46,643 nt of DNA. Source: an uncultured Gammaproteobacteria bacterium (lineage in GTDB: Bacteria > Patescibacteriota > Microgenomatia > Levybacterales > UBA12049). Positions 33,765 through 40,743 of this stretch are shown in pieces (positions within the stretch are counted from its first letter, which is position 1; each line of letters begins with the position of its first letter). The stretch lies in assembly GCA_964624955.1 (NCBI GenBank), contig CAZUZF010000002.1, forward strand, positions 1 to 46,643, written 5' to 3'. The position numbers were made by a program, and so were the translations under genes. The notes beneath the pieces are model-generated. The model saw nothing but the letters and a program-made list of their open reading frames with translations. It was not told the DNA's origin and searched no databases.

Positions 33765-36120
33765 AGAATAAAATAAAGAATAAAAGTATTAACCCCAAAG
33801 CTCCAATTCCAAGCCCAAAGGTAAAGGTTTTGGGATTGTAATAGAACTCCACTTTATGTTTGCCTTTTGGCACTTCAACTGCCCTAAAAGAATAATTTGC
33901 AAGTAAAATTTCAGTTTTTACCCCATCTACTTTTGCCTCCCATTCTGGATAGAAATTATCTGATAAAAATAGAAAACTGTTTCCTGTTGTACTTACATCA
34001 AAAATTATCCTATTGGGCTTGTATGATAAAAGCTCTGCCGAGCCAGTAGCAAAAGAATCTATAGAAAGCTTTGGCTTTTTTTCTAAAATTAATGTTTTTC
34101 TTAAATTGATATCAGGATTATAAATACTTGCTAAAGCCATTGCTTTGTTTTTGGCAATAATGTAATCTCCTGTTACAAAATATCTTGGCAACGCGTTTAT
34201 ATTCTCATAAACTTGCCATGGATATACTTTATAAGCAAGTCTGTATTGTTCTTTGGGAAAAGTATTTTCATCTGTTTGGTACCAAGCGTCTATTAACTCC
34301 TGCTTGTGCAATATATATTTAACTCCAAGTAAGTCTAATACTTTCTTTCTGTAGAAATTTTGTTTTAGATCATCCGCTCCGTAACCCCCTGCCACATTTG
34401 CGTCTGGTCTTGGAAGAATTTTTGGCAGTTTGCCATCCTTTGACGATGCAAGTAGCTCTGTATAGGAAAGAATGTGCAACGGATCGTTTCCCTCAGGAGA
34501 ATATGTACCGTCAACGCTTTGGAAATTGGCTGGAATATATGCGCTCCCATATCCCCAAAATCTGTTTATTCCCCCCGTTTTACTTAAATAGGATATTACA
34601 GGTGTGTTTGGATATGTAAAACTTATTGGTGCAAAAGGAGTAATTTTATTAAAAAAATAAAAAAGGTCAAAAACAATAAGAAATGTAAGTAACAGTATTG
34701 ATAATTTAAGATTAAATCTTTTAAGAAAGACTGCAATCACTGTAACAAACATTAAACCCGATGGGATTACCAGATTCCTAAGGGTTATTTTTAAATTAAC
34801 AGACAAATCCGGATTTGCCTTCATTAATACTAAAACAATTATCCAGATTAGGGAAAACGAAATGATTGCAAAATAAATAATTTTTTTTGAAAAACTCTTT
34901 GTTTGAATAAAATGATTTATACCGATTGCAGCTAAAACAATTAATGAGAAGATAAAAATACTAAGTTCTCTTGTTGCAACTGTTGTTGAAATAACAGGAA
35001 TAGGGATTAAATAAAAGTACTTAACTAAAGGAAAATTTGTAGCAATCACTAAAGAAACAATTCCTACCAATATAAAAAACTTTCTCTCTTTTACATTAAT
35101 CTTTGTAAAAATAGCGTAAAGAGCAAAAAACAAGATTGCAACCGACGGATACATTACTCTTTCTATATAAGTTCCGTCTAGAAAGTAGTTTCTTGTTGCA
35201 GGATGTCCAAAGAAATCAGGAATAGCTATGGTGATAAGATTAAAAATTGGAGAAAGATTTTTTTCTAATTGCAAAAGTGAATAGGCGCCTCTTGTACTTT
35301 GGGAAAAAAGTTTAAGCGTTGGAAGCAATTGAAAAGATGTAATTAAAAAAGGTAGAAATAAGGAAACTAAAAACAAGAAATTTTTTTTATGTTTTTGAAG
35401 GCTTCCCTTTTTACCAAAGACAAGAAAACTATAGTACAAAAAGCAAAGCAAGTAAATATAAAATACTCCCTGGATGTATCCTGCAAGTATAGAAAAGACA
35501 AAGGACAAACAAATCCCCAAGAAATTTACAATACTTGCCTTCTCAAAATATCTTTTGGTAAAAAATAAAATTAAAGGAAGCCATAAAAGAGTGCTGCCTA
35601 TATTTCCGTACTCAATCCAAACAGTCATATAAGAAGAAAAGCTAAAGGAAATACCCCCAAGGAAAGATGCGACATCCGAGAGATTAATTGATTTTCTAAG
35701 AAACAAATACATGAAAAATCCTGCCAGAAGGGGCTGGAGCATAATAATAATTGTCCAGGCCAAATTAAAAGGCAAAATAAAATACAAAAGGTTAAAAGGA
35801 TAAAAAAATGCGGTTTGGAAATTGGCCATCTGCGGGTTGCCTGAAAAATTATGAGGGTTCCAAAATGGAATACTGAACTGTCTTAACGTATTTATGGAGA
35901 AATACCGCCACGGATATATTTCGGTAATAACATCAGGGCCTTGGGCTTTATTCGGATATCCCCCTGGAGCAAACCCTAAGAAAGATTCTGACCTATAAGG
36001 ATTTTGATTTACTAAAAGATCTCCGGGGAATGGAATATAGCCTTTAAAAACAGGCCAGAAAAATAAAAGTACGATAGCACCGATTAATAAAAAAGGCCAA
36101 AATCTTTGTAACCATTTCAT
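33736..36120 (-). CDS. YfhO-family polytopic membrane protein (GT-C)
   Basis: 794 aa. Motifs YPWRYFSINTLRQFSIPFWNPHNFSGNPQMANFQTAFFYPFNLLYF and C-terminal LSDNFYPEWEAKVDGV...KGKHKVEFYYNP. Confidence 0.9.
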   Translation of the reverse strand: MKWLQRFWPFLLIGAIVLLFFWPVFKGYIPFPGDLLVNQNPYRSESFLGFAPGGYPNKAQGPDVITEIYPWRYFSINTLRQFSIPFWNPHNFSGNPQMANFQTAFFYPFNLLYFILPFNLAWTIIIMLQPLLAGFFMYLFLRKSINLSDVASFLGGISFSFSSYMTVWIEYGNIGSTLLWLPLILFFTKRYFEKASIVNFLGICLSFVFSILAGYIQGVFYIYLLCFLYYSFLVFGKKGSLQKHKKNFLFLVSLFLPFLITSFQLLPTLKLFSQSTRGAYSLLQLEKNLSPIFNLITIAIPDFFGHPATRNYFLDGTYIERVMYPSVAILFFALYAIFTKINVKERKFFILVGIVSLVIATNFPLVKYFYLIPIPVISTTVATRELSIFIFSLIVLAAIGINHFIQTKSFSKKIIYFAIISFSLIWIIVLVLMKANPDLSVNLKITLRNLVIPSGLMFVTVIAVFLKRFNLKLSILLLTFLIVFDLFYFFNKITPFAPISFTYPNTPVISYLSKTGGINRFWGYGSAYIPANFQSVDGTYSPEGNDPLHILSYTELLASSKDGKLPKILPRPDANVAGGYGADDLKQNFYRKKVLDLLGVKYILHKQELIDAWYQTDENTFPKEQYRLAYKVYPWQVYENINALPRYFVTGDYIIAKNKAMALASIYNPDINLRKTLILEKKPKLSIDSFATGSAELLSYKPNRIIFDVSTTGNSFLFLSDNFYPEWEAKVDGVKTEILLANYSFRAVEVPKGKHKVEFYYNPKTFTFGLGIGALGLILLFFILFYVRNNQKTL

Positions 36121-37643
36121 GTTTTTGGAACAACTTGATAAACTCGATAATAAGAACCGTTATTTCCTTGCTCTACCTGAAATATTAATTCTAAAGGAAA
36201 GTCAGCTGGTATAACCTGGTGTTCTTTTTGATAAAAGATAAAATAGGTCGGCATTTTCTTTGCATATTTCAAAACCTCTTTTGGAAATTTATCAACCGGC
36301 CAGTAGCCTTTTATAATGACGTTTTTATTATCTACCAAATACATTTCCATTGCCTCTGGCATTAATCCAAATGTACCTTGGGTTGCAACGAAGATTTTTT
36401 TGTCATAAGACTCTTTTTTAAAAAATGCAACACTCTCCTTTACTCCCCAGCCGGCAGCCCAGTTGTTTACATATTGGCTGTTATCTGCTTTTGCAATTTG
36501 TGAATTTATAGGATCATAAGCAAACTGAAAAGATACAAATCCGCTATAACCAACAAAGACAATCGTTAATACAACTGTGTAGATAACGTTGGGAATTTTC
36601 AGTTTAATTTGTTGACTTGTAAAGGTAATTAGATACTCAAGTCCCCAAGCAGCTTGTGGCAAAAGCATTAAGCTCATAAAGAAAATAAATCTTGGGAAGA
36701 TTACTCTTCCAAAAAGGGCAAGGGCTACAAATGGAAGAAGAAAATAAAGAGAAAGAAGTGCTTTTTCTTTGGTAAATTTTGTAATAAATATATATGAAAT
36801 AACAATTAAAGCAAGGTATGGCAATTTCAAATACTGTGTAAGCCAGCTGAATAAACCGTTAAGATTCCCTATAAAAAAAGTAAAGGGATGCTCAAGCCAC
36901 TCGTTAAGAGGGTAAACAAAGATTGCATTCTTGGCACTGATCATCTGAAAAAGAGGAGAAAGTCTTAAAATATTGTATAGACCGTAGGCAATAGCCGCTG
37001 AAAATCCCGCAAATACAATAAATCTTAAAAGTTTTTTTACTATTTCTTTATCCTTAAAATTAAAAAGGATAAGTAAAAACGGCAAAAGATAAATACTGAA
37101 AAAATTTGCAGTTTTTGTAAGTACACCTGCCGCTATAACAAAACCAAGGGTATAAGCTATATCAAGTCTGGTTTTTCTTACTAAAACAACTGAAAAATAT
37201 GTTGCCCAGACAAAAAAAGTTCCAACCATACTATCATATAAAGCCATTCTGTCTAAAACTTGGGCAAAGGGATAGAACACATAAAGAATTGAAGATAAGA
37301 ATGCAGTCCTTCTACTTTTAAAAAGCTCGTAGGTCAAAAACCAAAGACCAATCATAGTAAAAAAACCACTCACTACAGAAACAAGTCTTGCTGCAATAAG
37401 GGGGTCATTGATAAATTTCATAAAAACTATTACTGCCCAGACAAACATAGGCTGTTTTCCATCGGTTAAAGAGATAAATCTCCATGAGGAATCGTTTAGG
37501 GCAATCTGTGCCCACCTGGTATAAATTGCCTCATCTGTAAACATTGGGAGCCTATCTAGAAAAATTAACCTTAAAAGAAAATAAGAAGCAACGATAAAGA
37601 CAGATAGTATAATTTCATTCCTAAACCTGGATAAAAGCTTCAT
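36117..37643 (-). CDS. ArnT-like GT-C membrane glycosyltransferase (GT39/GT83-like)
   Basis: 508 aa. First-loop DE motif LPMFTDEAIYTRWAQ, more than 10 TM helices and a soluble C-terminal domain. First gene after the predicted promoter at 37650-37678. Confidence 0.85.
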   Translation of the reverse strand: MKLLSRFRNEIILSVFIVASYFLLRLIFLDRLPMFTDEAIYTRWAQIALNDSSWRFISLTDGKQPMFVWAVIVFMKFINDPLIAARLVSVVSGFFTMIGLWFLTYELFKSRRTAFLSSILYVFYPFAQVLDRMALYDSMVGTFFVWATYFSVVLVRKTRLDIAYTLGFVIAAGVLTKTANFFSIYLLPFLLILFNFKDKEIVKKLLRFIVFAGFSAAIAYGLYNILRLSPLFQMISAKNAIFVYPLNEWLEHPFTFFIGNLNGLFSWLTQYLKLPYLALIVISYIFITKFTKEKALLSLYFLLPFVALALFGRVIFPRFIFFMSLMLLPQAAWGLEYLITFTSQQIKLKIPNVIYTVVLTIVFVGYSGFVSFQFAYDPINSQIAKADNSQYVNNWAAGWGVKESVAFFKKESYDKKIFVATQGTFGLMPEAMEMYLVDNKNVIIKGYWPVDKFPKEVLKYAKKMPTYFIFYQKEHQVIPADFPLELIFQVEQGNNGSYYRVYQVVPKT

Positions 37644-37649
37644 ATAAAG

Positions 37650-37678
37650 ATTATATTCTATGTATGTATTTCAATCAA
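37650..37678 (-). promoter_or_regulatory. Candidate sigma70-type promoter with leaderless geometry
   Basis: Minus strand reads TTGATT (37678-37673), 17-nt spacer, TATAAT (37655-37650), then CTTTAT (6 nt), then the ATG at 37643. The 12-mer TATAATCTTTAT is identical to the one at 40331-40320. Confidence 0.55.
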
Positions 37679-37692
37679 TGTTTATACTAAGG

Positions 37693-38349
37693 TTATACTA
37701 TTGCCTTCTCGGGAGAGATCTGAGGAATTTTAGATCCAGGAAGATAAAGCCTACCTTCAATAATTAGTTGGAATATGTTTGCAGGCGTAACGCCTGGAAG
37801 AGTCTCAATACCTACCTCTTCTCTTGCTAAATCTGGGAACGCTACTATTAATTCACCCTCAACTACCTTTTCTGCTATATCAGCATCACGCTCGTCCACG
37901 AAGGTATGTAGCATTACAACGTCTCGCAATACTGCCTTTGTTCCTTCATTTTCTACCTCCTCAAAAGTATCTAGTGCCAAAGCTACATCTGGAACGACAT
38001 CCCAAGGCTCCTCTGAAGGGTCAAAATAAGCAAGATCAGTTCCCCTTCTTGCTTCTCTCATGGACTTTTGTAATGCTATGATACGCTTTGTGTAGTCTGG
38101 ATTTATGTCGGCAATTCTTCTCCATGCTAAATCTACTGGTTGCCAGGAACCCTGTGATCCATTATATTGCCTAGTCCTATCAATCAAATGTCTTTCTGCA
38201 ATTCTTTCGGCGATACAAGCTAAGCTTGTTCCTTGTACTGAAAGTTCTTTAGGTGTAACAAGAGGTCTCACTGCACCAGAAGTCCCATTAAGATCTAAGC
38301 TAGGCTGTTGAGGAATTGTTCTACCTTCTTCACCTGGAAATCCTGCCAT
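37693..38349 (-). CDS. Hypothetical soluble acidic protein with no recognisable domain
   Basis: 218-aa ORF, ATG start, no TM segment. The N-terminal roughly 40 aa are G/P/S/T-rich and the rest looks helical. It is the longest frame in a locally more G+C-rich patch, has the same strand as its neighbours, and has its own promoter-like element. No family recognised. Confidence 0.65.
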   Translation of the reverse strand: MAGFPGEEGRTIPQQPSLDLNGTSGAVRPLVTPKELSVQGTSLACIAERIAERHLIDRTRQYNGSQGSWQPVDLAWRRIADINPDYTKRIIALQKSMREARRGTDLAYFDPSEEPWDVVPDVALALDTFEEVENEGTKAVLRDVVMLHTFVDERDADIAEKVVEGELIVAFPDLAREEVGIETLPGVTPANIFQLIIEGRLYLPGSKIPQISPEKAIV

Positions 38350-38355
38350 AGACGG

Positions 38356-38384
38356 AATATACCAGAAGAAATAAGCAATATCAA
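38356..38384 (-). promoter_or_regulatory. Candidate sigma70-type promoter with leaderless geometry
   Basis: Minus strand reads TTGATA (38384-38379), 17-nt spacer, TATATT (38361-38356), 6 nt (CCGTCT), then the ATG at 38349. It lies entirely within the 39-nt intergenic gap. Confidence 0.5.
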
Positions 38385-38388
38385 TAGG

Positions 38389-39564
38389 TTATTTTGAAAA
38401 TAGTTTTAGCTTTGCAAAATATAGAATTGTGAAAGTTATTGTGGCAAATAACCCAAGATATTCAATATTTACAATTATTTGCGGGTATCCTTTTGCATAG
38501 TCTGTCATATAAACATATACAACATAAATTAGAACCATAAATATTGAGGCAAGCAAACACGGTATAAATATAAAATATTTTCTTGATACAAACGCACATA
38601 AGGAAAGAGGAAAAATTAAATACCAGGGCTGAAAAGTAGTCCTAAGTGTTGCAAAAACCACTGCAACCAAAGAAAATACAACACCAATTAAAAATATATT
38701 TTCCCAAATTACCTTTTTTTGTGTCTTTTCAAAATAATAAATTAGGACAAAAATTGGAAGAAGAACACCTGTTGAAAATTTAATCCCTATGGAAAAGATT
38801 AAAGAAAGCAAAGACAAAGCTTTCCTTTTAGTTAAATAAAGATAAATTGCCAAAAGCGCAAAAAATACTAATGGAAAGTCGTTATGCGCAGAAACCAACC
38901 CTTCAATTAAGATAAGAGGGTTAAATGCAAAAAACACTGTGTTAAAGATCGCATTCTTTGGGAAAAGAATATTTGATATTTTATAGATTAAATAAACACT
39001 TCCAAGAAAGGATAGTCCAATCATTATCTTAAATAAAAAAAACGTTGGTAAAAACATATTAAATCCAATAAAAGACAAGGGTACTGTTAAAGCTAGCCAG
39101 CTTGGGCCGTAAGGATAAACTCTGTGAGTCCAACGCATAAAGTTAAGCATTGGATCATTTGTAAAATCCAAAGGCTTATGAAGATACGGATTTTGTCCAT
39201 AGTGAGTTAATATTTTTGCGTCAAAAATATAATTAAAAAGATCATAAGAAAATGCATTATATGAAAATACCAAAATTATAAATGTTAGAAAAATAAGTAT
39301 TTTGGTTGTATTTAATTTCAGCTTTTCTTTTTTTGCAAGATATAAAAACGATAAATAAAACAAAAACAGTAAAAAGGAGATTACAGAAAATATCAATGTA
39401 GAAAGCGGTCTATCAAAAAACCCAATATATTGAAGTTGTTTTTGTAAGGCTTGATAAATAGAGCTTTGGGATAAAGTTAGACTTAAATCTACCTGAGTAA
39501 AAGAATAAAAAAATAAAGCAATTACTACTATTATATATAGGGAGAAAAGATTTATTCTTTTCAT
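38389..39564 (-). CDS. Polytopic membrane protein, DUF2029/GT87-like GT-C candidate
   Basis: 391 aa, about 10 TM. Motifs SYDLFNYIFDAKILTHYGQNPY, VYPYGPSWLAL and LVSAHNDFPLVFFALL. Paralog of the partial gene at 1..934. ATGA-coupled to the upstream GT2. Confidence 0.85.
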   Translation of the reverse strand: MKRINLFSLYIIVVIALFFYSFTQVDLSLTLSQSSIYQALQKQLQYIGFFDRPLSTLIFSVISFLLFLFYLSFLYLAKKEKLKLNTTKILIFLTFIILVFSYNAFSYDLFNYIFDAKILTHYGQNPYLHKPLDFTNDPMLNFMRWTHRVYPYGPSWLALTVPLSFIGFNMFLPTFFLFKIMIGLSFLGSVYLIYKISNILFPKNAIFNTVFFAFNPLILIEGLVSAHNDFPLVFFALLAIYLYLTKRKALSLLSLIFSIGIKFSTGVLLPIFVLIYYFEKTQKKVIWENIFLIGVVFSLVAVVFATLRTTFQPWYLIFPLSLCAFVSRKYFIFIPCLLASIFMVLIYVVYVYMTDYAKGYPQIIVNIEYLGLFATITFTILYFAKLKLFSK

Positions 39565-40365: not shown

Positions 40366-40743
40366 TTATGCTGCTAACCTGTCTCTATAGACTATAAAGC
40401 CAATCATGTTTCCCCTGTCCGTTGGATCCACACCCCTAAAAACAATTAGTCTTCTATCATGAGGAATGTGATAGCTAATTGCTCTGAGTAGATGGTCACT
40501 TACATTGGGCCGTTTTATTACTTCCTTAGTTGGAACATGCCTAAATACACATGTGCCATCTTCCATTGCCTCAAGCTCCTCAACCATCATTGCTGATCTT
40601 GTTATTGGATGTACTCCTTCCGTAAGTATTTCCCTTCTTATAACGGCTGATTGATAATCCCCAGCCATTATTTGCTGTGCAACTTTAATAGCATCTTCAG
40701 TTGGAACAGGCATGGGTCTTAGGAAATATCTCTCTATTGGCAT
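40366..40743 (-). CDS. Hypothetical small soluble protein with no recognisable domain
   Basis: 125-aa ORF, ATG start, no TM segment, mixed alpha/beta character (…TCVFRHVPTKEVIKRP…RRLIVFRGVDPTDRGNMIGFIVYRD). A promoter-like element lies upstream. No family recognised. Confidence 0.65.
   Translation of the reverse strand: MPIERYFLRPMPVPTEDAIKVAQQIMAGDYQSAVIRREILTEGVHPITRSAMMVEELEAMEDGTCVFRHVPTKEVIKRPNVSDHLLRAISYHIPHDRRLIVFRGVDPTDRGNMIGFIVYRDRLAA

What the first reader, a model, noticed from the sequence alone, without database searches (positions are those of the whole stretch)
37693..38349. Orphan 218-aa soluble protein with its own leaderless-type promoter, wedged inside the membrane-protein array
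Seen: there is no TM segment. The N-terminal roughly 40 aa are G/P/S/T-rich and the body is acidic and helical (…FEEVENEGTKAVLRDVVMLHTFVDERDADIAEKVVEGEL…). No motif I can assign to any family.

The DNA is visibly more G+C-rich than its flanks. One sampled 60-nt line inside the gene counts 26 G+C, against 17 in a sampled line of the neighbouring membrane gene. Three antisense ORFs open up here as a consequence. Arg codons are still mostly AGA/AGG, so the shift is driven by amino-acid composition and need not be foreign. Promoter-like elements sit immediately upstream (38356-38384) and immediately downstream (37650-37678), making the gene a separate transcription unit.

Inference: candidate regulator, chaperone or cytoplasmic partner of the glycosylation machinery, or an unrelated highly expressed gene.
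Basis: partly seen in the sequence, partly recalled or inferred. Interest (0 to 1): 0.6.

Follow-up and report, generated by a model that had tools for sequence, protein, structure and literature searches.

The report
Nomadic orphan gene with clamp-binding-like tail
The 218-residue frame is a real gene of a very rare, fast-evolving protein family of Levybacteria (tiny uncultured bacteria); it was dropped as a single-gene insert between two sugar-transferase genes that touch each other in sister species, and its floppy front end carries a short peptide that looks like the tag other proteins use to dock on the DNA sliding clamp.

Summary
ORF 37693-38349 (-) is soluble and acidic, richer in G+C than its flanks, and has its own leaderless-type promoter.

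It is a real gene. Its codon usage is typical of the host. An exhaustive search of 1.84 billion proteins found about 10 full-length relatives at 26-39% identity. dN/dS between two relatives is 0.31.

It is not part of the glycosylation array. In three same-genus genomes the two flanking GT-C genes are separated by only 31 nt, so the window carries a ~711-nt insertion. No relative lies next to a GT-C or GT2 gene, and every context differs. A fifth congener holds a divergent copy fused behind lexA and flanked by a 21-nt target duplication.

No family or fold was found in Pfam, NCBIfam, PHROGs, PADLOC, PDB or BFVD. The alignment-based AlphaFold model is all-alpha (pLDDT 75) with a disordered 39-residue tail.

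The best-conserved feature sits in that tail: E-x(4-8)-Q-[LP]-[DES]-[LF]-x-[LFI], here QPSLDL. It matches the beta-clamp-binding hexapeptide QLxLxL (Pol IV QLVLGL, Hda QLSLPL).

My best reading is an accessory protein tethered to the clamp. This is inferred and untested, at about 35%.

The parts
37693..38349 (-). 218-aa protein-coding gene (stop included), member of a rare Levybacteria-restricted family
   Evidence: The ORF is listed. Its codon-usage score in frame is 0.315, against a genome mean of 0.323, and the other frames on the coding strand score negative. Full-length homologs turned up and are aligned.
38356..38384 (-). Own promoter: -35 TTGATA, 17-nt spacer, TG-extended -10 TATATT, then 6 nt (CCGTCT) to the ATG, with no Shine-Dalgarno sequence (leaderless geometry)
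   Evidence: The site appears. Five homologs show a -35 and a -10 hexamer with the -10 six nt before the ATG.
38233..38349 (-). Disordered, G/P/S/T-rich N-terminal tail (residues 1-39)
   Evidence: The AlphaFold2 model built on the alignment has pLDDT 40-43 over residues 1-39.
38290..38307 (-). Codons for Q15-P-S-L-D-L20: the family-invariant hexapeptide that resembles the beta-clamp-binding motif Q-phi-x-L-x-L. The invariant E7/E8 lies upstream of it.
   Evidence: The alignments are. The motif definition comes from PMC4564189, PMC3836487 and bioRxiv 10.64898/2026.05.27.728225.
37714..38232 (-). Acidic all-alpha domain (residues 40-212, 8 helices), with conserved D57, W76, N83-P-x-Y, F129, V132, L141, D143, L195 and G199
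   Evidence: The model is (pLDDT mostly 86-94 in this part, pTM 0.72). Foldseek found no match.
37681..38391 (-). ~711-nt insertion relative to same-genus genomes. It supplies a new stop (TAA 38391-38389) for the upstream GT-C gene, plus the promoter and the ORF.
   Evidence: Congeners G001, G003 and G004 have a 31-nt spacer here; the window has 745 nt. The boundaries are ambiguous by a few nt (AAA microhomology). The terminal repeat is not significant.
37675..37680 (-). CATTGA: remnant of the ancestral last codon (His) and stop codon of the upstream gene, now stranded downstream of the insert and overlapping the -35 of the next promoter
   Evidence: The junction alignment with G001, G003 and G004 is.
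37650..37678 (-). Ancestral promoter of the PMT_2 gene (TTGATT-N17-TATAAT-CTTTAT-ATG), conserved in congeners
38389..39564 (-). Upstream neighbour: 391-aa polytopic membrane protein (MptA_B-family GT-C according to precomputed Pfam). Its C-terminus was altered by the insertion (...FSK* against ...KH* in congeners).
36117..37643 (-). Downstream neighbour: 508-aa PMT_2 / GT-C glycosyltransferase
   Evidence: (PF13231, E 2.4e-11).

Best explanation
The ORF is a genuine, host-adapted gene of a small, fast-evolving protein family that has no entry in any library searched. So far the family is seen only in Levybacteria-type CPR bacteria and in low-G+C metagenome contigs that mostly show the same promoter style.

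It is a nomadic accessory gene. The unit that moves is a compact promoter plus one ORF. In this lineage that unit landed in the last codons of a GT-C gene, so its position inside the glycosylation array is an accident of insertion.

The protein has a flexible N-terminal tail of about 39 residues and an acidic all-alpha domain of about 170 residues with no known fold relative.

[quoted passage not shown] This would tether the helical domain to clamps loaded on DNA. There it would either compete with polymerases or bring a partner to the replication or repair fork.

The lexA-fused copy in a sister species suggests a link to the DNA-damage response for that copy at least.
For: It is a real gene.
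- In-frame codon-usage score is 0.315, against a genome mean of 0.32; the other two frames of the coding strand score negative.
- GC3 equals the genome median.
- 9 full-length homologs at 26-39% identity were found among 1.84 billion representatives. More came from profile searches.
- dN/dS is 0.31 between P0012 and P0014.
- The start codon is supported by an invariant M1...E...Q15 and by the -10-N6-ATG geometry that is modal in this genome.

It is an insertion and it moves.
- The spacer is 31 nt in three congeners and 745 nt here, and the ancestral CATTGA is stranded downstream.
- Congener G002 carries a divergent member behind lexA, flanked by a 21-nt duplication of the lexA 3' end. The other four congeners have lexA directly followed by dedA.
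- The close orthologs in L021, L022 and L050 (about 86% nt identity to L050) have different upstream neighbours.
- The family is found in only 7 of 245 genomes of the order.

The motif.
- It is present in all 13 core members while the surrounding tail is otherwise poorly conserved.
- It lies in a segment with pLDDT of about 40.
- Positions 1, 4 and 6 always fit Q, L/F and L/F/I. Position 3 is D, E or S in 11 of 13. Published data say positions 1 and 4-6 matter most and that a negative charge at position 3 helps binding.
- An N-terminal location has precedent in Hda and HdaA.
- G000 has DnaN, and its DnaE carries a canonical internal QGSLF.
- This is the only soluble G000 protein with such a hexapeptide in its first 30 residues; the proteome rate is 2.7e-4 per residue.
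Against: No binding test was possible.

In G000 and five other core members position 2 is Pro, not the preferred aliphatic residue. Mutating position 2 weakens binding.

G000's own DinB lacks a recognisable C-terminal motif, so the rules in this organism are unknown.

Most of the more distant relatives (L039, L040, L041, one G734 copy) lack the motif.

The match to the consensus was noticed after the fact, so no honest P-value can be attached. The invariant Glu upstream of the Gln has no counterpart in known clamp-binding motifs.

The G000 copy has no detectable LexA-type operator; its promoter shares nothing with the lexA promoter. The neighbours related to DNA metabolism in other loci (NUDIX, UDG, GIY-YIG, DinB_2, YdjM) are anecdotal.

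The mechanism of movement is unknown. There is no recombinase, no significant terminal inverted repeats and no significant target duplication in G000.
Confidence: 0.4

Rival explanations
1. It is a stand-alone accessory protein whose conserved N-terminal peptide binds some partner other than the sliding clamp, such as a protease adaptor, a chaperone or another lineage-specific protein. The helical domain would have an unrelated cytoplasmic role, and the likeness to QLxLxL would be coincidental.
For: The motif is short and hydrophobic-rich. Pro at position 2 in half of the members and the invariant upstream Glu do not belong to the clamp consensus. Most distant relatives lack the motif. No conserved DNA-metabolism partner was found.
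Against: The fit at positions 1, 3, 4 and 6 holds across 13 members that share only 23-39% identity with the window's protein. The motif sits at a disordered terminus as in Hda. One copy lies in a lexA operon.
Confidence: 0.33
2. It is a DNA-damage (SOS) effector, for example a lineage-specific brake on cell division or replication of the kind that often sits beside lexA (sulA, yneA, chiZ and divS are all unrelated to each other). The G000 copy would have escaped LexA control.
For: In congener G002 and at least 4 metagenome contigs the member overlaps the lexA stop (TAATG) and has no promoter of its own, so it must be co-transcribed with lexA. Other members lie near DinB_2, YdjM, NUDIX, UDG or uvrB genes. 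This reading is compatible with the clamp-tether idea.
Against: The lexA linkage is seen in one species only, and there it results from an insertion with a 21-nt duplication. G000 and most other members have ordinary constitutive-looking promoters with no shared operator. The family is absent from more than 95% of the related genomes searched, although all five genomes of this genus have lexA.
Confidence: 0.12
3. It is a cytoplasmic partner, regulator or chaperone of the surrounding GT-C/GT2 glycosylation machinery.
For: Physical position only: it sits between two GT-C genes on the same strand.
Against: It is absent from the same site in three congeners that keep the whole array. None of about 20 related loci has a GT-C or GT2 neighbour. 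The insertion clipped the end of the upstream gene.
Confidence: 0.04
4. It is a selfish or conflict gene: an orphan immunity or antitoxin protein, an anti-defence protein or a DNA mimic carried by a tiny mobile cassette.
For: Its distribution is sporadic and it evolves fast. For example, the neighbouring TspO proteins are 62% identical where the family members are 30% identical. It occurs as single-gene insertions at different sites, is acidic (pI 4.3-5.0), and has small GIY-YIG genes beside two distant members.
Against: No PADLOC or PHROG hit. No homolog in phages, plasmids or IMG/VR. No conserved toxin or partner gene. The net charge is ordinary for a cytoplasmic protein and far from that of Ocr or ArdA-type mimics.
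Confidence: 0.1
5. It is a spurious ORF opened by locally higher G+C content.
For: None beyond the absence of a family assignment.
Against: Full-length homologs have a conserved start, motifs and length. Codon usage in frame is host-like. dN/dS is 0.31. The ORF fills 657 of the 745 nt between the neighbouring genes and sits exactly behind a promoter.
Confidence: 0.01

Closest known systems
Hda / HdaA (regulatory inactivation of DnaA): the N-terminal clamp-binding hexapeptide QLSLPL in E. coli and QFKLPL in Caulobacter
   Same: Both have a hexapeptide of the form Q-phi-x-L-x-L within the first ~20 residues, ahead of a folded domain. In Hda/HdaA this peptide is required for docking on DnaN and for recruitment to the replisome (PMC3836487).
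   Different: There is no AAA+ domain, no sequence or fold similarity, a sporadic rather than a core distribution, and Pro at position 2 in the G000 copy. Binding is untested.
Pol IV (DinB) C-terminal QLVLGL and the general QL[SD]LF / QLxLxL clamp-binding motifs
   Same: The family variants QLDLGL, QPDLGL and QLELGI are near-identical in pattern to QLVLGL. The acidic or Ser residue at position 3 matches QL[SD]LF.
   Different: The motif is N-terminal, not C-terminal, and is attached to a non-enzymatic-looking all-alpha domain.
Clamp-targeting toxins SocB (Caulobacter) and RipA (S. pneumoniae)
   Same: These are small accessory proteins that act by occupying the hydrophobic cleft of DnaN and disturb replication (PMC9690074, PMC12795458). 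This is a plausible functional analogue.
   Different: No adjacent antitoxin or adaptor gene is present. Homology to SocB and RipA was not tested because their sequences were not at hand. Toxicity is unknown.
Genes co-transcribed with or next to lexA (sulA in Pseudomonas, yneA, chiZ, divS, imuA cassettes)
   Same: The copy in congener G002 overlaps the lexA stop codon and has no promoter of its own.
   Different: This is true for one species only and arose by insertion. The G000 copy is elsewhere under its own promoter. There is no similarity to any of these proteins in Pfam or NCBIfam scans. That these genes lie next to lexA is from my own knowledge, not from a tool.
Integron gene cassettes and other single-ORF mobile cassettes
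   Same: The unit is one ORF of about 0.7 kb, found between conserved genes at different sites in related genomes.
   Different: It carries its own promoter and has no attC-like palindrome or terminal inverted repeats. No integrase was found among the ORFs of the fetched loci, and no fixed core site is shared between events.

Membership tests
Beta-clamp-binding proteins (defined by a clamp-binding motif) | Penta- or hexapeptide Q-phi-x-L-F / Q-phi-x-L-x-L, with positions 1, 4 and 5/6 critical | tested here: met
   13 of 13 core members carry Q-[LPNQ]-[DSER]-[LF]-[GDNP]-[LFI] at the same alignment columns (one of them, P0010, has an extra residue: QPRFDGL). G000 has QPSLDL.
Beta-clamp-binding proteins (defined by a clamp-binding motif) | Aliphatic residue preferred at position 2 | tested here: inconclusive
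   Position 2 is Leu in 6 of the 13 core members, Pro in 6 (including G000) and Asn in 1. The fragment P0008, which is not in A4, has Gln there. Replacing position 2 with Ala weakens binding in E. coli and B. subtilis.
Beta-clamp-binding proteins (defined by a clamp-binding motif) | Motif exposed in a flexible terminus or linker | tested here: met
   Residues 1-39 have pLDDT 40-43 in a model whose core mostly reaches 86-94.
Beta-clamp-binding proteins (defined by a clamp-binding motif) | Physical, motif-dependent binding to the DnaN cleft | not testable with these tools
DnaN is present in G000.
Glycosylation-module component (partner of GT-C/GT2 genes) | Conserved co-location with GT-C/GT2 genes in relatives | tested here: not met
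   The syntenic site is empty in G001, G003 and G004. No GT neighbour occurs in any related locus.
Any curated protein family (Pfam-A, NCBIfam, PHROGs, PADLOC) or solved or predicted fold (PDB, BFVD) | Significant profile or structural match | tested here: not met
   There were no hits for the G000 protein at E<=1. Across the members, only scattered single-member hits with E>0.06 appeared. The PDB sequence and profile searches gave best E values of 0.84 and 0.053. Foldseek gave best E 0.79 (PDB) and 0.36 (BFVD), with TM<0.3.
Type II toxin-antitoxin or immunity pair | Conserved adjacent partner gene | tested here: not met
   All-against-all BLAST of the neighbours found only a TspO gene shared by two loci and a weak NUDIX match. 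The G000 insert holds one ORF only.
Transposon, IS or integron cassette | Transposase or integrase, terminal inverted repeats or attC, fixed-length target duplication | tested here: not met
   G000 has no significant terminal repeats. The repeats flanking other members differ in sequence and length, and several are generic intergenic repeats. Only G002 shows a clear 21-nt target duplication.
LexA (SOS) regulon member | LexA operator at the promoter, or co-transcription with lexA | tested here: inconclusive
   The feature is met by the G002 copy, which overlaps lexA. It was not seen for G000. The candidate operator GTATA-N3-TATAC of the lexA promoter occurs only once in the genome. The true LexA box of this lineage is unknown to me because the Patescibacteria SOS paper is not held.

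The most novel reading that the evidence does not exclude
A Levybacteria-specific protein with a new fold moves between genomes as a self-contained promoter-plus-ORF cassette. It docks on the replicative sliding clamp through an Hda-like N-terminal hexapeptide and acts as an optional brake or adaptor for replication or repair. In one species it has been captured into the lexA operon as an SOS effector. This would be a new class of clamp-targeting accessory protein in bacteria with minimal genomes.
Probability: 0.2. Interest if true: 0.65.

Novelty: new variant of a known kind. Interest (0 to 1): 0.42.

Why it matters
Most genes of CPR bacteria are unannotated, and this one could easily have been filed as part of the glycosylation locus in which it lies. 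Comparison with sister genomes shows the position is an insertion accident.

The work yields three things:
- A defined small protein family with a confident all-alpha model and no fold relative in the PDB or BFVD.
- A concrete, cheap, falsifiable hypothesis: one peptide and one clamp protein in a binding assay.
- An example of how single genes, each with its own compact leaderless promoter, are shuffled between sites in these tiny genomes without any recognisable mobile-element machinery.

If the clamp link holds, it would add a lineage-specific player to replication control in organisms that lack most known regulators. If it fails, the gene remains one more orphan accessory gene.

Tried and rejected
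Family and fold searches that gave nothing usable:
- Pfam, NCBIfam, PHROGs and PADLOC scans of the protein and of all family members.
- PDB sequence and profile searches; the only hits were Cas12m2, threonine synthase and Nup192 at E>0.05, taken as chance.
- Single-sequence AlphaFold2, pLDDT 33, useless.
- Foldseek of the good model against PDB and BFVD, nothing below E 0.3.

Homolog searches:
- The word-indexed protein search found only the protein itself.
- Pattern-based locus searches failed or found nothing.
- tblastn against phages and plasmids gave no match.
- Rfam on the region gave nothing.

dN/dS within the species was not possible: three other metagenome contigs are 99.85-99.95% identical, with a single K138R change.

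I first read the 17-23-nt direct repeats flanking 5 of 13 family genes, against 0 of 190 control genes, as target-site duplications. I then weakened this claim. In the L015 organism the repeat (GGGAATAATTTAGCC) follows seven consecutive genes. In the L022/L050 lineage it is a dispersed intergenic repeat. Only the G002 duplication of the lexA 3' end stands. The G000 junction repeat is not significant.

Other ideas dropped:
- A retro-copy of a leaderless mRNA, prompted by the G002 insert appearing to start at the ATG. I set it aside because the repeat makes the boundary ambiguous and other copies carry their promoter.
- A TspO partnership. TspO is upstream in two loci, but G000's TspO is on another contig.
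- A type IV pilin-like N-terminus (G-F...E). There is no hydrophobic helix and other members do not share it.
- A LexA operator at the G000 promoter. None is recognisable.
Full report
**1. The observation**

The minus-strand ORF 37693-38349 exists and encodes 218 residues from an ATG.
- It has no hydrophobic segment: the maximum 19-residue hydropathy is 1.19.
- The first 42 residues are 45% G/P/S/T. The body is acidic, with 32 D+E against 20 K+R; pI is 4.66.
- G+C per 60-nt line averages 25.3 in the ORF, against 20.2 and 16.8 in the two neighbouring membrane-protein genes (profile).
- Three antisense ORFs of 68-85 aa open here.
- 13 of 16 Arg codons are AGA/AGG.
Each ends 6 nt before an ATG, and neither is followed by a Shine-Dalgarno sequence.

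Hexamer pairs as such are no more frequent here than in shuffles (17 against 18.7). Genome-wide, however, the pattern TTGANN-N16-18-TANANT followed by an ATG that opens 60 or more codons peaks sharply at 6-10 nt spacing. Those spacings give 67 hits, with the mode at 6. Leaderless-type starts are therefore the norm in this genome, which earlier notes of the scan also say (e1-3398386, e1-2184123). Having 'its own promoter' is not a special feature of this gene.

**2. It is a real, host-adapted gene**
- The in-frame codon-usage log-odds is 0.315, against a genome mean of 0.323 (62nd percentile). The other two frames of the coding strand score negative.
- GC1 and GC2 are 0.58 and 0.42, against genome means of 0.44 and 0.34. 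GC3 is 0.265, against a genome mean of 0.266 (50th percentile).
- The word-indexed search of 5.8 billion proteins found only the protein itself.
- The exhaustive HMMER scan of 1.84 billion representatives found nine relatives at 26-39% identity (E from 2e-24 to 4e-5). Eight span the whole length (180-220 aa) and one is a 98-aa fragment.
- Profile searches added further members.
- Two relatives with 71% amino-acid identity give dN/dS = 0.31 over 196 codons.
- The alignment keeps M1, a Glu at position 7/8 and Q15 in every member. Together with the promoter geometry, this fixes the start codon.

**3. It is an insertion, not part of the glycosylation array**

The genome is an 837-kb, 90%-complete CPR assembly. 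One relative is named Candidatus Levybacteria.

In three of the four other genomes of the same genus, the orthologs of the two flanking genes are 75-81% identical to those in the window. These are the 391/393-aa MptA_B-like GT-C and the 508-aa PMT_2. In those genomes they are separated by exactly 31 nt, TTGAAACACTCTCTTAGAATATAATCTTTAT in G003 and near-identical in the other two. That spacer is the promoter of the second gene, and its -35 overlaps the stop codon of the first.

In the window the spacer is 745 nt. The ancestral '...AA(G/A) CAT TGA TTGAAA...TATAATCTTTAT ATG' survives intact downstream of the 218-aa gene. The upstream gene now ends two residues early (the Pro and the final His are gone) on a new TAA. 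The simplest reading is a ~711-nt insertion (38391-37681) into the last codons of the upstream gene. The junction repeat (ATAACCTATTGAT / ATAAAC-ATTGAT) is no better than shuffles. There are no significant terminal inverted repeats.

Three further metagenome contigs carry the same arrangement at 99.85-99.95% identity, with one K138R change.

**4. The family is rare and moves around**

Six-frame profile searches gave these counts:

| Group searched | Genomes with a member |
|---|---|
| Order | 7 of 245 |
| Class sample | 4 of 401 |
| Phylum sample (one hit weak) | 2 of 401 |

No two loci share neighbours, apart from a TspO gene near two members. No locus has a GT-C or GT2 neighbour.

The fifth congener, G002, has a very divergent 210-aa member (23% identity). 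It was found only by the profile, at E 6e-9 and then 3e-49 once it was included. Its ATG overlaps the stop of lexA (TAATG), and it lies between lexA and a convergent dedA-type gene. In G000, G001, G003 and G004 lexA is followed directly by dedA. The G002 gene is bracketed by a 21-nt duplication (20/21) of the lexA 3' end. The arrangement recurs in at least four other assemblies.

Two species of one genus therefore acquired different members at different sites.

In another lineage, the orthologs in L021 and L022 are each 86% identical in DNA to the one in L050, and 81% to each other. They share the promoter-plus-ORF unit but have different upstream neighbours. The breakpoints lie at short repeats.

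I first took the 17-23-nt flanking repeats in 5 of 13 loci, against 0 of 190 control genes, as target duplications. Several turned out to be generic intergenic repeats of those genomes, so only the G002 case stands. How the unit moves is unexplained. I saw no recombinase, transposase or attC. No homolog exists in phages, plasmids or IMG/VR.

The family evolves fast. Two loci whose TspO neighbours are 62% identical have members that are only 30% identical.

**5. What the protein looks like**

No hit came from Pfam, NCBIfam, PHROGs, PADLOC or PDB sequences, either for the protein or for the profile.

With the 12-sequence alignment, AlphaFold2 gives mean pLDDT 75 and pTM 0.72. Residues 1-39 are disordered (pLDDT about 40). 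Residues 40-212 form eight helices, with pLDDT mostly 86-94. Foldseek finds nothing in the PDB (best E 0.79) or BFVD (best E 0.36), and all TM-scores are below 0.3. No AlphaFold DB library was available.

Conserved core positions are D57, W76, N83-P-x-Y, F129, V132, L141, D143, L195 and G199. This is not an obvious catalytic constellation.

**6. The lead on mechanism**

The most conserved element of the family lies in the disordered tail: E-x(4-8)-Q-[LPN]-[DSER]-[LF]-[GDNP]-[LFI].
- The variants seen are QPSLDL (window), QLDLGL, QLDLGF, QLDFGF, QPDLGL, QPDFGF, QNELGL, QLELNI, QLELGI, QPSLPI and QPRFDGL.
- This is the pattern of the bacterial beta-clamp-binding hexapeptide Q-phi-x-L-x-L. Examples are Pol IV 346-QLVLGL-351 (PMC4564189), E. 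coli Hda N-terminal QLSLPL and Caulobacter HdaA 4-QFKLPL-9. The HdaA peptide is required for DnaN binding and recruitment to the replisome (PMC3836487).
- Published scanning shows that positions 1, 4 and 5/6 matter most, that an aliphatic residue at position 2 helps, and that a negative charge at position 3 improves affinity (bioRxiv 10.64898/2026.05.27.728225). The family fits at positions 1, 3, 4 and 6. It fits at position 2 in only half of the members; the window's copy has Pro there.
- G000 has dnaN, and its DnaE carries a canonical internal QGSLF at residue 919.
- In the G000 proteome the strict hexapeptide occurs at 2.7e-4 per residue. Among 703 ORFs only five have it in the first 30 residues, and the other four are in hydrophobic membrane anchors.

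I therefore propose that the tail tethers the helical domain to DNA-loaded clamps. The functional analogues would be Hda (an adaptor) or the clamp-blocking toxins SocB and RipA. The lexA-fused copy in G002 would put that member under SOS control.

This is an inference from a motif recognised after the fact. The caveats are:
- No binding or complex model was obtained.
- Hexapeptides bind the B. subtilis clamp poorly.
- G000's DinB lacks a recognisable motif.
- Most distant relatives lack the motif.
- The invariant upstream Glu is not part of any known clamp motif.

I put the clamp-tether reading at about 35%. Another partner for the tail peptide gets about a third. The remainder goes to an SOS effector role, which overlaps the clamp reading, and to a selfish or conflict role.

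**7. Verdict**

Its fallback, an unrelated gene, is right.

The gene is a new member of an undescribed, rare, Levybacteria-type family with no detectable fold relative. It was acquired as a single-gene cassette. The clamp-binding-like tail gives a cheap decisive experiment.

Interest is moderate. Orphan accessory genes are common in CPR genomes. This one has a clear evolutionary history, a confident model and a testable mechanism.

Noticed in passing
window 40366-40743 (-): The other 'orphan' of this array (125 aa) is conserved at the same position in congeners, as 127-aa and 125-aa ORFs upstream of the GT2 gene in G004 and G001. Unlike the 218-aa gene, it belongs to the ancestral locus.
   Followed up: partly
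L015 (Logan SRR30681715 contig), positions 3, 516, 1203, 1546, 2231, ~2750, ~3125: A ~15-nt motif GGGAATAATTTAGCC follows seven consecutive, functionally unrelated small genes. It often contains their stop codon and lies just upstream of the next -35. Variants occur in L016 and L019. It looks like lineage-specific intergenic punctuation, with stops in two frames. Its function is unknown.
   Followed up: partly
L032 (G000 contig C28) and L028-L031, about 20-35 nt upstream of the lexA start codon: Unlike most genes here, lexA of this genus has a leader with a GGAG Shine-Dalgarno sequence. It also has a conserved palindrome GTATA-N3-TATAC overlapping and following the -10, which occurs only once in the G000 genome. 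This is a candidate LexA operator.
   Followed up: partly
G000 contig C4 18434-19687 (DinB) and contig C1 36565-39798 (DnaE): DnaE keeps a canonical internal clamp-binding motif (QGSLF at 919). The Y-family polymerase ends in ...REKLAFNTNF, without a recognisable QLxLF or QLxLxL.
   Followed up: no
L040 2149-2412 (-) and L042 1103-1345 (+): Small (80-87 aa) GIY-YIG nuclease-like genes lie directly beside two distant members of the family in two different genera.
   Followed up: no
L045 1489-1992 and 1993-2565 (-), genome G734: Two distant paralogs of the family sit in tandem, abutting each other, about 550 nt from a family-4 uracil-DNA glycosylase gene. One starts MPVEIGGQIGVLF, which is a clamp-motif-like QxxxLF.
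   Followed up: no
L050 1828-1853, 3189-3210, 3601-3636; L022 2537-2553 and 3411-3427: A short dispersed intergenic repeat containing GGCCGGTCTAGGACC has three copies in a 3.6-kb contig. In a related contig, two copies bracket the family gene. This could be a substrate for cassette shuffling.
   Followed up: partly
L020 9398-12791: A 3.4-kb stretch without called genes lies downstream of the family member on a 194-kb ENA contig. I did not examine it.
   Followed up: no
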